Position numbers: made by a program
From: Ophelia neglecta
Lineage: Eukaryota
Assembly: GCA_965285935.1 (NCBI GenBank)
Contig: OZ260661.1
Location: forward strand, 94,922,001-94,986,000
Direction of reading: 5' to 3'
DNA length: 64,000 nt
Part shown: positions 60,001 to 64,000 of the stretch, in pieces
Numbering within the stretch: the first letter of the stretch is position 1
Layout: each line of letters opens with the position of its first letter

Positions 60001-63000
60001 TTCTTTTTATCTGTAGTTATTGTACCAATTATTGTAGTCATTACTTTATATGGCAAACTGTATGTAGTGAATAACTAAGTAAAATGTTATTGGCAGTTTT
60101 TATTCCTTCTTTCAAAAATAAAACCTCTTTTAATTTATCTGAGAGTTGTTATGTTCATTTTTTTGTACTTGTAGGAAAGAGGAAGAAGAAAAGGTAAGCA
60201 GCTGTACATTATTTTTATCTCATATGCCTTCTTTCAATCAAATCCTTTCCTGATGAGCACCTGTTTTACTTATAGAACACTGTCTTTACTTATTATACGC
60301 TCACACAGTGTACTGTAGAAATCTTTTATTTTGTGGACCCAATGTTTCGTGGTTAGGAAAAAAAGCTTTGCCGGACCATATTTTGCAACTTATACATCCC
60401 AGATATTTGTTTGCGGGGGTTTATTTCAATAGGCAAAGTTTGTTGCCATAAAAAAAATTATGCAGCAGCGAAGCATCGTTTATTTTTGTGAAACTTTTAT
60501 TTAGCGAAGAAGAGGGCACATTTTTGTGACAGATCGTAATCCGTATGCAGTGTTTATCCCTCATGATTTCAGTCAGATTTCAGTAGACCTGCACATGCTG
60601 GCTAGCTAAACCAGACATGAACTCCCACTGAAATGCTGAGGCCCAATAAGTATATAACGCACCCTGTGATTAGTTATTTTTCTTCCTCTTGGCCAGTCAC
60701 ATCAAGCCTTTCTCATGCCGTCAGTATACAAATTGCATATGGCCGACACAGCAAAGAAGTAGTGAATATTCAGCAAATAAATCTGCATTGTGTTACTTAA
60801 TTATAGTCTATCCAAGGGACCAATATTAGCAGCGAGGTAGAAATGTTTTTCCTTGCACAACGTGGATCTTCAGTCGCTTTATATGAGCAAGTAAAGGGGT
60901 GCCTTGTTATAGCACCAGTGAGAAAAACAGCTTAGTCCTGCTAAACTGGTTTTGAGACTTACTCATTTGTTAGTCCCAGAATTTTAATTTTGCTAAAAGT
61001 AATTTTCACATGAAAGCTATATTCACTTTTGCTGGAGTTTTTTTCTTGGAATTTGATTTTCACAACAAAATATGTTATTCCCGCCACTATGGTAAATTTA
61101 CAAAATTCGTGAAATTAAAGTACCACAAAATAGAAGACTTCAACGGTATATCTGTGGGGTTTTGTCTATCTCAAAAAAACCTTTGTTTATTTTTTGTCTC
61201 CACTATTGCACACTTTACTGTCTGCTTAATTCTATCTCTGGACTACATGTCAAATGCATGTTAAATCCATACACAATCTAAAAATTCTAATTTGATGATT
61301 TCTTGTAATACCAATATGTGATCATGAAACCCAAGATGAAAAATCAGAGAAGAATAGGCCACCAAAAGACTACAGAGAGATATAAACAACTTAAAGGCCA
61401 AGATAATTTGAGAAACCAGCAAGAAAAAGTGGTTGACCCTATTCGCTCAAGTTCATCCCCTGCTAATTACGACTACTCTGATGACTTTGAATCTTATACC
61501 AGCTCAGACACCGCCATATGTAGAGCTTCTAGCTCCCATTCAGCAAGCTCAAAAGAAGGCACATCAGGTTATTATGCCGAGAAATCTGTAGCACAAGATG
61601 GACAGAAAATGGCTGTACCAGTAAAGGGTATATCACACCATGAATACCCTGTGTATACAGATGAAAAAGAATTGGATGGAGTGATGAATGATTTGAAAAC
61701 TGCTGAAGATGAACTGGGATTTACATGTAAAACGGATCCTGAAACAATGGTATCCCAACTAGAAAAGGTGCAGAATGACATGGATGCCATGTTTGGTTCC
61801 TATGATCCTATACTGGGGAAGGATGATTACCTTTCTATTGCTATCAGAGAAGTAGAAAAAGCTCAAAGTAAAGAAAACAATTCTGTTGAATTGAAAGAAA
61901 ATTCAGATGCAGTATTCAAACTGGAAGATGAAAACAATAGGACAATTACCACTGATCTGCCTAGTTATGTTTCGGATACTACTATTAAATGTAAGAGAGG
62001 CCCTTTAGAAATTAACCCAAAGAATGACACAACAGATCAGGAACCAGAACTATCAGCTCCTTCAGCCATAGATAATGCAGCAGGCAGTGTTGTGCTAGAC
62101 GTTCTCAGAGCTTCTTTGCAAAAAGTTCAGGGATTTGAACAAAGACTGTGTAGTGGCATATTCAGGAAAATTCCTGCAGTCAAGTCAGTATTCAAACGAC
62201 TGGAGCCTCAAACCAACAGTTCTGAGTCTTCAGTTTCTATTGATTTAGAAAAACCAAATGGTTTAACACCAGAACCATGTGTTGTTTGGGAACCCAGCCA
62301 AGGAGATGCTGAGGAAATCCTCGCAGATTTTGATTCGGTTAAGTACCCAGAGAAAAAGGACAGCACAACAGAACAACTCAAAGAGGAAGAAATACAGCAA
62401 TGTTTGGTAAAAGGAAGGAAGACTGGATTATGGCTTCAGCAGGAAGTGTCACCACCTATTAGCGATTTTATTCAACTTTCAGACAGCAAAGTAGGAAATG
62501 AAACAGCACCTGTGGAAAGGACTCCAGAACCTACTCCAGTGGTCCCTTTCTTGTCTTCTCCTCAGCAAACAGCCACCCATGAGGATCAGTCTGATAACAT
62601 ACTGTCCAATCCCTCTAATTCTGTTAATAAGGGAACAACACCTACTCATGATAATAGCAAAGAAAATGAAAGATGCAATTCTGATCTGCAGATCAGTGCT
62701 GTGAAACTGGACAAGCCCCAAAATAACAGTAGAAAACTGGGCAGTCAGTTAGTTGAAAGCACTCATCCAGATGAGAGTTCAGACAAAACCGAAATCACTC
62801 TAGATTCAATAGCTGATCCTGATCAAAGCAAGAAAAACTCACTGCCATTGTTTGAAAAGAACAATATTGTCTCGCCAAGAAGCTTCAAATCGAGTTCTAG
62901 TGGAAATGCATCATCTTTAAAATTGCCAGAAAAGACACCACTGATTGCTACAGGCAAACCTGCTAGATCGCCAACCATATCTCCTGCCAACTCTCCTTCT

Positions 63001-64000
63001 CCAGCAAGATCGCCAGCTCCACCTAAAAGTCCTCGCAGAATATCACTTAACACTAGAACAGGATATAGCTCAAAGCCAAACCCTCTTAGTCCCAAGAAAA
63101 AAAATACTCCAAAGAATACTCTCAAAACTAGATCACCGAGACAAAAGACAATTCATGCAAAGATAACCTCCCCGAGCACCATATCAGCAGCTAACCCTTA
63201 TGAAACAAAAACCAAATCACCAAGACAAGAAAATAAAGTCAAGGAAAGTGCATTAGCAGCAAGCAGTACAAGAAATACAGGTGACAAAGTGAACTCCGTT
63301 TCTAATAGAAGTGATGTTTCTGAACCAATGAGAAAGTCTTTGGGAGAAAAGTCAATGAAATCTCCATTGGAGCTAACCCAACAAAATGCACAATCTCGCA
63401 CAGAGTGTAGTACTGAAACTTCAAAGACACAGTCATCTGTGGGCAAAAGTCTCGACATTTCAAATGTTGAACCTGCTGACAGCACAGAAGTATGTGTGAC
63501 AGGGAGCCAGCAAGTTGCTCACCTTGGAAATGTGGAAGATTCTACAAGTTTTGAACTAGAACCACAAAGTTCATCCCTTCATTCCTATCCTGATGATGAG
63601 GTATTTGAAATGAAGTTATCAACGTGTTGTGAAGATTTATGGTATTTCAAACACATAACCAGTTCTTTCATTTTGTCTCCCCAAACTGTAACACTATTAA
63701 CCAGACTCACTCAAGCCTTGGAAATTTGTTTTTAATGTTTGGTATATATTTATTTGGTATATTTTATTACTTTCCCTTTTAAAGTTGTTTCTTCTCAGGT
63801 TGCATTGATGAAGAATCTTATGTTCACATAATATGATATTAGGATAAGAACAAACCTATCATGTGACAACTTATTTTTGTTTTTGGGCAACTTATGGTTT
63901 ATACTGGAAAGAGCAGGATACAACATTAAATTATATATGGTATTATTTATTGCCTTTTGAAGCCCATATTTCATTGACTGCCAATATACTTAAACATGTT

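What the first reader, a model, noticed from the sequence alone, without database searches (positions are those of the whole stretch)
61318..63735. Giant 2.4-kb disordered open frame in the WDR60 locus: lineage-specific exon, WD40-less isoform or nested gene
Seen: 805 stop-free codons on the WDR60 strand, joinable in phase 0 to the 19-nt exon 60175-60193. The early motif NYDYSDDFESY resembles the acidic EDDFEDYEDDFE segment recalled from vertebrate WDR60, just after the charged region. The rest is unlike WDR60: an acidic half, then a basic Ser/Pro-rich half with SPR, SPRR, SPKK and a repeated KT(R/K)SPRQ (CDK-type sites). The frame stops at 63735, and splicing 63600 to the acceptor at 63798 also stops within 11 codons. 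Inference: an alternative terminal exon could give an isoform with the WDR60 N-terminus but no WD40 domain, or WDR60 could carry a 750-aa insertion.
Basis: partly seen in the sequence, partly recalled or inferred. Interest (0 to 1): 0.68.

Follow-up and report, generated by a model that had tools for sequence, protein, structure and literature searches.

The report
Giant disordered exon in dynein-2 gene
A 2.3-kb stretch next to an extended-synaptotagmin gene in an invertebrate genome is a real protein-coding exon that most likely adds about 750 floppy residues to the flexible front end of a probable dynein-2 intermediate chain (WDR60-like) gene, but no RNA data or downstream sequence were available to show how it is used.

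Summary
The open frame is real: 808 stop-free codons (61309-63735, +), against 28-84 stops in the other five frames and at most 168 codons in 200 shuffles. It is coding. An exhaustive HMMER search of 1.84 billion proteins found one relative, an unnamed 648-aa ENA protein (E 1e-9). The two share a 190-residue block and the same acidic-then-basic Ser/Pro layout.

Base composition and splice signals bound an exon at 61336-63600. The acceptor is the first AG after a 197-nt AG-free zone, the longest on this strand. The 45 open codons after the GAG|GT donor are intron-like. The exon enters and leaves in phase 0, and is in frame with a 14-exon Arg/Asp/Lys/Glu-rich chain that starts at ATG 47494, head-to-head with an E-Syt gene.

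This layout and synteny fit DYNC2I1/WDR60. However, no WD40 exon lies in the window and no sequence test supports the name.

Best reading: a lineage-restricted giant exon that lengthens the disordered N-terminal tether. I could not decide between an internal exon, a WD40-less isoform and a separate gene. The window is invertebrate, not human.

The parts
47494..47508 (+). Candidate first coding exon (MPSGK), donor AAG|gtaaga
   Evidence: One of only 2 ATG-started phase-0 exons with a strong donor in 46561-49583. It fits the exon chain.
49584..49631 (+). Exon 2, 48 nt, SKEDTWKSGDLEKQIR, phase 0 in and out
51482..51995 (+). Exons 3 (51482-51608, 127 nt) and 4 (51835-51995, 161 nt). They are Arg/Asp/Lys-rich, and the phase-1 intron between them restores the frame.
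52759..57154 (+). Array of seven in-frame 39-51-nt mini-exon candidates encoding D-R-E-R-R-H-R-like units: 52759-52809, 52957-53007, 53732-53776, 54188-54235, 54423-54470, 54725-54763, 57110-57154
   Evidence: Shared 32-nt core (family D1). All have AG/GT borders, phase 0 in and out, and mostly GTTAGT donors.
58685..60193 (+). Exons 58685-58855 (171 nt), 59889-59965 (77 nt) and 60175-60193 (19 nt). 77+19 = 96 nt, so the chain ends in phase 0.
61137..61333 (+). 197-nt AG-free zone with a pyrimidine-rich stretch, ending at the acceptor AG 61334-61335
   Evidence: Longest AG-free run on the + strand of the window. 5 of 200 block shuffles reach 197 nt anywhere in 64 kb.
61336..63600 (+). Giant exon, 2265 nt = 755 codons, phase 0 in and out. 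An alternative acceptor at 61348 and an alternative phase-0 donor after 63489 are possible.
   Evidence: The composition-defined exon-like segment is 61326-63569.
61465..61497 (+). Acidic/aromatic patch NYDYSDDFESY, at about residue 359-369 of the exon model
   Evidence: The position compares with the human IFT54-binding stretch 375-394 (PMC10110421). No sequence match was obtained.
61684..62250 (+). Conserved block (residues 126-314 of the frame), shared with P0002
   Evidence: phmmer E 1e-9 over the whole library. BLASTP 59/189 identical, E 6e-14. Alignment A1.
62872..63228 (+). Basic Ser/Pro-rich segment holding 11 of the 16 SP sites, with SPRR, SPKK and two KT(R/K)SPRQ
   Evidence: P0002 has a matching SP cluster with SPRR.
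63601..63735 (+). Open but intron-like tail of 44 codons plus TAA (63733-63735)
   Evidence: AT skew is -0.08 against +0.23 in the exon. 0 of 48 exon windows are that low, and 108 of 164 intron windows are at or above it. The chance that 45 codons stay open in these introns is 479/7766 = 0.062.
63799..63831 (+). Possible short last coding piece after AG 63797-98 (10 codons, then TAA). Not supported beyond chance.
   Evidence: The only poly(A)-type hexamer in 63501-64000 is ATTAAA at 63925.

Best explanation
The frame is a real, spliced, protein-coding giant exon (61336-63600, 755 codons). It belongs to the + strand gene that starts at ATG 47494, head-to-head with an extended-synaptotagmin gene. 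That gene is probably the DYNC2I1/WDR60 ortholog of a spiralian-type invertebrate.

The exon follows about 315 codons of Arg/Asp/Lys/Glu-rich exons. It opens with an acidic/aromatic patch, continues through a 190-residue conserved block, and ends in a basic Ser/Pro-rich segment with proline-directed kinase sites.

[quoted passage not shown] It also adds a phosphorylatable basic segment. The weak local acceptor behind a long AG-free zone suggests that inclusion is regulated rather than constitutive.

Shown here: coding status, exon borders, phase, one distant homolog, and the E-Syt neighbour.
Inferred: splicing to the upstream exons, gene identity, the tether role, and alternative use.
For: Coding:
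- 0 internal stops against 28-84 in the other five frames; shuffles reach at most 168 codons.
- Codon log-odds are positive in frame 0 (+0.18 per codon) and negative in the other two frames (-0.14, -0.51).
- One homolog at E 1e-9 among 1,835,955,588 proteins, with collinear layout.

Exon borders:
- The acceptor AG at 61334-35 is the first AG after a 197-nt AG-free zone, the longest on the + strand. 5 of 200 shuffles reach that length anywhere.
- Large AG-free zones mark distant branch points and a higher rate of alternative splicing in human exons (PMC1431707, abstract).
- The composition-defined segment 61326-63569 matches 61336-63600.
- The tail after 63600 is intron-like.

Same gene: all 15 exons have AG/GT borders and chain in frame from ATG 47494, including a phase-1 intron that restores the frame. 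The giant exon enters in phase 0.

Gene identity:
- The neighbour's C2 exon matches Extended synaptotagmin-2 at E 1e-12, with an SMP hit.
- Mouse gene order is Vipr2-Wdr60-Esyt2-Ncapg2 (PMC6554306, passage).
- Human WDR60 residues 1-374 are divergent and disordered, followed by a conserved IFT54-binding stretch at 375-394 (PMC10110421, passages). Here about 315 charged codons are followed by the DDFE patch at about residue 360.

Tether role: PMC10987677, section 12.
Against: - No WD40 exon, no light-chain motif (0 TQT) and no sequence match to any solved WDR60 chain. The name is therefore unproven.
- The local acceptor is the weakest of the 14 in the model, with a pyrimidine fraction of 0.45 against 0.55-0.80.
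- Two in-frame ATGs with A at -3 lie at 61324 and 61336, just after the frame opens. This would also suit an independent start.
- P0002 starts at the Met aligned to residue 126 and lacks the DDFE patch.
- The frame stays open 45 codons past the donor (P about 0.06).
- No named DYNC2I1 protein of any species matched the exon.
- No expression data of any kind were available.
Confidence: 0.55

Rival explanations
1. Alternative 3' end. The giant exon is spliced to the upstream charged exons, but the message ends nearby. This could happen through the acceptor before 63799 (10 more codons) or by reading through to TAA 63735. The product would have the charged N-terminus and the DDFE patch but no WD40 propeller.
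For: Both routes stop quickly. ATTAAA lies at 63925. The frame stays open to 63735 (P about 0.06 by chance). A propeller-less WDR-60 still enters cilia and keeps residual activity in C. elegans (PMC8576871, passages).
Against: The tail is intron-like in composition. Acceptor-like sites as good as 63799 occur 32 times in 12,897 nt of introns, about one per 400 nt. There is no AATAAA in 63501-64000. The donor after 63600 is in phase 0 and as good as the gene's other donors.
Confidence: 0.2
2. Separate gene. The frame is translated from its own ATG (61324 or 61336) on a transcript that starts inside the intron 60194-61335. It would be nested in, or follow, the charged gene.
For: Two ATGs with A at -3 lie within 10 codons of where the frame opens. 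The local acceptor is weak. The only homolog was called as a free-standing 648-aa protein starting at a conserved Met.
Against: The AG-free zone ends exactly at 61334. The phase matches the upstream chain, a 1-in-3 chance. The intron-like tail behind a phase-0 donor means the frame is at least spliced at its 3' side. P0002 comes from an unannotated contig, so its start is a gene caller's choice.
Confidence: 0.15
3. The exon is real and belongs to the upstream charged gene, but that gene is not DYNC2I1/WDR60. It would be some other protein with an Arg/Asp-rich N-terminus.
For: No tool result names the gene. There was no Pfam hit for any of 7 exon pieces, and no WDR60 among the solved-structure matches. 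Arg/Asp-rich low-complexity regions occur in many proteins (general knowledge).
Against: The head-to-head E-Syt neighbour matches the mouse order. The order is collinear: a short N-terminal motif exon, a charged region of about 315 aa, then an acidic/aromatic patch near residue 360, compared with the human map.
Confidence: 0.2
4. Transposon or other selfish ORF, or a chance or decaying frame with no function.
For: No known domain and no named relatives.
Against: Chance is excluded. There are no transposase or reverse-transcriptase domains, no other copy in 46500-64000, and no flanking inverted repeats better than 26 nt at 85%. Protein-level conservation with P0002 is significant.
Confidence: 0.04

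Closest known systems
N-terminal extension of DYNC2I1/WDR60 (dynein-2 intermediate chain)
   Same: It lies next to an E-Syt gene. It has a long charged, disordered N-terminal region followed by a short acidic/aromatic patch at a similar distance from the start. The region is known to be poorly conserved and to vary in length: about 287 aa in C. elegans and about 626 aa in human. It is known to act as a modular flexible tether to IFT-B.
   Different: About 700 further residues follow the patch inside one exon, including a basic Ser/Pro-rich segment that the papers read here do not describe. No light-chain sites or WD40 propeller are seen in the window. There is no significant sequence similarity to solved WDR60 chains.
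Giant alternatively spliced exons of cytoskeletal proteins (Big tau exon 4a; giant ankyrin long exon)
   Same: One very long exon inserts a mostly unstructured segment. For Big tau, sequence conservation is low despite a stable size (PMC9755724, abstract). For giant ankyrins, long exons are found across bilaterians (PMC5135030, abstract).
   Different: The host gene is different. Alternative inclusion is only inferred here from the weak acceptor and the AG-free zone. Only one homolog is known.
Engineered or patient-type WDR60 truncations lacking the beta-propeller
   Same: If the message ends near 63735-63831, the product would be a natural counterpart of these. C. elegans WDR-60(deltaCT) still enters cilia.
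   Different: Those are mutants, not natural isoforms. Here the terminal model has no support beyond chance.

Membership tests
DYNC2I1/WDR60 (dynein-2 intermediate chain) | C-terminal seven-bladed WD40 propeller that binds DYNC2H1 | not testable with these tools
   The window ends at 64000, only 400 nt after the exon. No WD40 exon lies on the + strand downstream of 47494.
DYNC2I1/WDR60 (dynein-2 intermediate chain) | Light-chain binding sites (DYNLT helix, DYNLL TQT-type stretches, roadblock site) before the propeller | tested here: inconclusive
   0 TQT motifs were found, and one loose KTQS at residue 705. The sites could lie beyond the window.
DYNC2I1/WDR60 (dynein-2 intermediate chain) | Long, charged, disordered and poorly conserved N-terminal extension | tested here: met
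   About 315 codons of Arg/Asp/Lys/Glu-rich exons. 58 of 66 windows of the giant exon fall on the disordered side. For the human region.
DYNC2I1/WDR60 (dynein-2 intermediate chain) | Conserved IFT54-binding stretch after the divergent region (human 375-394) | tested here: inconclusive
   The DDFE-type patch sits at about residue 359-369 of the model. There was no hit against solved chains. The letters of the human motif are recalled only, and no paper text holds them.
DYNC2I1/WDR60 (dynein-2 intermediate chain) | Detectable sequence similarity to a known WDR60 | tested here: not met
   There was no WDR60 chain at E up to 10 for the whole frame, the patch, exon 2 or the block profile. No named DYNC2I1 appeared.
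DYNC2I1/WDR60 (dynein-2 intermediate chain) | Conserved gene neighbourhood with ESYT2 | tested here: met
   E-Syt exons lie on the - strand at 25-46.5 kb, with a C2 match to Extended synaptotagmin-2 at E 1e-12. Mouse order is from PMC6554306.
Giant alternatively spliced disordered exons (Big tau 4a, giant ankyrin) | A single exon over 700 nt encoding a mostly unstructured insert, included alternatively | tested here: inconclusive
   Length and disorder are met. Alternative use is not testable without RNA. The only hints are the 197-nt AG-free zone and the weak acceptor.
Transposable-element ORF | Transposase, reverse-transcriptase or gag-type domains, terminal repeats, multiple copies | tested here: not met
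   No Pfam family passes its cut-off. There are no terminal repeats and no second copy in 17.5 kb. Genome-wide copy number is not testable.

The most novel reading that the evidence does not exclude
The DYNC2I1 promoter of this lineage makes, besides the motor subunit, a propeller-less protein. It would consist of the charged N-terminus, the IFT54-type acidic patch, a conserved block and a MAP-like basic Ser/Pro segment. Such a protein would ride on or compete for IFT-B trains and so tune dynein-2 loading under proline-directed phosphorylation. It would be a natural version of the truncation that still enters cilia in C. elegans.
Probability: 0.12. Interest if true: 0.7.

Novelty: new variant of a known kind. 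Interest (0 to 1): 0.36.

Why it matters
The N-terminal extension of WDR60 is the part of dynein-2 that tethers the motor to anterograde IFT trains. It can be transplanted as a module (PMC10987677). A natural form with a tether about three times longer, carrying a conserved block and a phosphorylatable basic segment, would show how much length and charge that tether tolerates. It could also reveal an extra binding site or a regulatory isoform. If the gene name or the splicing turns out to be wrong, what remains is an ordinary fast-evolving disordered protein of a narrow invertebrate lineage.

Tried and rejected
Searches that found nothing useful:
- Pfam on the whole frame and on 7 exon pieces: nothing above the cut-offs.
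- Word-indexed protein search, near-length: 0 hits among 8000 scored candidates.
- Profile of the conserved block against longer proteins: only P0002, which is part of the query.
- Solved-structure sequence searches with the frame, the DDFE patch, exon 2 and the block profile: no WDR60. The best match was DMIP3 at E 0.2, taken as chance.
- Rfam and tRNA scans of the window: 0 matches each.
- Tandem and direct repeats: no internal repeat structure in the exon beyond a 12-nt, 2.3-copy run.
- Inverted repeats around the frame: none convincing.
- Paper searches: WDR60 together with the motif letters gave 0 papers. For WDR60 with large/giant/long/lineage-specific exon, none of the 10 listed papers (of 64) holds WDR60. 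I therefore found no printed description of such an exon, within those two searches only.

- ESM Atlas: closed for both P0001 and P0002.
- Structure prediction: not accepted on three tries. There is therefore no fold model and no fold search.

Rejected readings:
- Read-through to TAA 63735 as the normal end, because the tail is intron-like.
- The acceptor before 63799 as evidence for a terminal exon, because it is at background frequency.
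Full report
**1.
- From stop to stop the + strand frame runs 61309..63735, 808 codons.
- It has no internal stop. The other two + frames have 38 and 84 stops, and the three - frames have 46, 28 and 51.
- In 200 shuffles of the region the longest frame averaged 98 codons and never exceeded 168.
- A codon model trained on the window's ankyrin ORF scores +0.18 bits per codon in this frame and -0.14 and -0.51 in the other two. 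The score is positive in 15 of 16 successive 150-nt windows; the lowest is -0.02.
- The charge layout is acidic (residues 51-500), strongly basic and Ser/Pro-rich (501-700, net +24), then acidic again (701-764).
- By a charge-hydropathy plot (scales recalled), 58 of 66 windows lie on the disordered side, against 10 of 72 for the ankyrin ORF. Residues about 201-350 look foldable.
- The window has no N.

**2. The organism is not human.**
- GC content is 30-40% throughout.
- The 811-codon ankyrin ORF at 15694-18129 has 45 relatives among 5144 candidates. The best is an unnamed record at 81% identity. The best named one is from the annelid Paralvinella palmiformis at 39%.
- I therefore treat the window as a spiralian-type invertebrate. 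The species is not established.

**3. It is a conserved protein-coding sequence.**
- HMMER read all 1,835,955,588 representative proteins and found one match at E up to 0.001. This is P0002, 648 aa, E 1e-9.
- BLASTP gives 59 of 189 identical residues, E 6e-14, between residues 126-314 of the frame and 1-173 of P0002.
- A full-length alignment is collinear: a conserved block, a polar acidic middle, an SP cluster with an aligned SPRR, and an acidic end.
- P0002 is an unnamed ENA record with a single-member cluster on a 93.5-kb contig. Its context could not be read.
- The word-indexed searches found nothing else (0 of 8000 scored candidates; only P0002 itself).
- No Pfam family passes its cut-off.

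**4. The exon borders.**
- The AG at 61334-35 is the first AG after a 197-nt AG-free zone (61137-61333) that carries a pyrimidine-rich stretch.
- It is the longest AG-free run on the + strand of the window. Only 5 of 200 block shuffles produce one that long anywhere in 64 kb.
- In human exons such zones mark distant branch points and a higher rate of alternative splicing (PMC1431707, abstract).
- The 20 nt just before this AG are the least pyrimidine-rich of the model's 14 acceptors: 0.45 against 0.55-0.80.
- At the other end a GAG|GTATTT donor follows 63600 in phase 0. A second phase-0 donor follows 63489.
- The exon has an A-over-T skew of +0.23. The 135 nt from 63601 to the stop have -0.08, like the gene's introns. 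0 of 48 exon windows are that low, and 108 of 164 intron windows are at or above it.
- A two-state composition scan places the exon-like segment at 61326-63569.
- The 45 open codons after the donor are thus best read as chance (479 of 7766 intron positions, 0.062).

**5. The host gene.**
- Taken exon by exon, 14 upstream exons with AG/GT borders chain in frame from ATG 47494. They are MPSGK, a 16-codon exon, two Arg/Asp-rich exons split by a phase-1 intron, seven 39-51-nt mini-exons, and exons of 171, 77 and 19 nt.
- They end in phase 0 at 60193, and the giant exon enters in phase 0.
- The joined sequence was not built or searched, so no whole-protein comparison was made.
- The upstream exons sum to 945 nt (315 codons). 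This places the NYDYSDDFESY patch near residue 359-369.

**6. Is the host gene WDR60?**

For:
- The - strand neighbour (25-46.5 kb) is an extended synaptotagmin. It has a C2 match to Extended synaptotagmin-2 at E 1e-12 and a weak SMP hit.
- In mouse, Wdr60 lies between Vipr2 and Esyt2 (PMC6554306, passage).
- Human WDR60 has a divergent, disordered region at 1-374. It is followed by a conserved IFT54-binding stretch (375-394), a putative IFT80 site (407-433), DYNLT and DYNLL sites, and the propeller from 627 (PMC10110421 passages; PMC10987677 passages and section 12).
- The order seen here fits that map: a short N-terminal exon, a charged region, then an acidic/aromatic patch.

Against:
- No WD40 exon is in the window.
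- No TQT motif is present.
- Four searches against solved chains give no WDR60 match.
- My impression that the first two exons and the patch resemble the human protein is recall, not a test.
- I put the gene name at about 0.75-0.8.

**7. What happens after 63600.**
- The acceptor before 63799 gives 10 codons and a stop.
- Equally pyrimidine-rich YAG sites occur 32 times in 12,897 nt of this gene's introns. One in the 400 nt that remain is therefore expected by chance.
- There is no AATAAA in 63501-64000 and one ATTAAA at 63925.
- The window therefore cannot say whether the message continues to a propeller.

**8. Mechanism (inferred).**
- The N-terminal extension of WDR60 is a modular, flexible tether to IFT-B. 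Its loss abolishes rescue, and it works when moved onto WDR34 (PMC10987677, section 12).
- Its length differs widely between species: the disordered N-terminus is about 287 aa in C. elegans (PMC8576871) and about 626 aa in human.
- The simplest reading is a lineage-restricted lengthening of this tether by one giant exon. It carries a conserved block that may be a binding site, and a basic SP cluster open to proline-directed kinases.
- Close parallels in kind are Big tau exon 4a and the giant ankyrin exon (abstracts).

**9. Rivals.** I considered:
- a propeller-less isoform,
- a separate nested gene (ATGs at 61324 and 61336; P0002 begins at the Met aligned to residue 126),
- a different host gene,
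- a transposon or chance frame, which is rejected.

**10. What stayed unchecked.**
- Expression.
- Sequence beyond 64000.
- P0002's contig.
- Any eukaryotic genome collection.
- Fold prediction, which was not accepted.
- Paper supplements and figures.

Noticed in passing
window 52759-57154 (+): There are seven in-frame mini-exon candidates of 39-51 nt, each encoding a D-R-E-R-R-H-R-like unit. They share a 32-nt core and mostly GTTAGT donors, and look like a tandem exon-duplication array. Two further degenerate copies near 54943-54984 and 55220-55260 may be decayed.
   Followed up: partly
window 15694-18129 (+): This is the longest ORF of the window (811 codons), an intron-less ankyrin-repeat protein. 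It has few relatives: 81% identity to one unnamed record, 39-43% to a handful, and Paralvinella palmiformis as the only named close hit.
   Followed up: partly
window 3669-11640 (-): This is a multi-exon gene with a CTLH-like N-terminal exon (PF23138, E 2.5e-6) and WD40 exons. By recall it resembles WDR91. The name was not tested.
   Followed up: no
window 25409-46556 (-): This is an extended-synaptotagmin gene (SMP and C2 exons; C2 matches Extended synaptotagmin-2 at E 1e-12). Its first coding exon lies about 1 kb from the candidate first exon of the charged gene, which suggests a shared divergent promoter region.
   Followed up: partly
window 61568-61660 (+): Inside the giant exon, a donor-like site after 61567 and an acceptor-like site before 61661 are in matching phase and 93 nt apart (a multiple of 3). 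An in-frame optional intron between the DDFE patch and the conserved block is therefore possible.
   Followed up: no
window 62050-62250 (block positions 120-185 of A1): The best, non-significant, solved-structure match of the conserved block is a chain named DMIP3 (9e78), E 0.2. I took it as chance.
   Followed up: no
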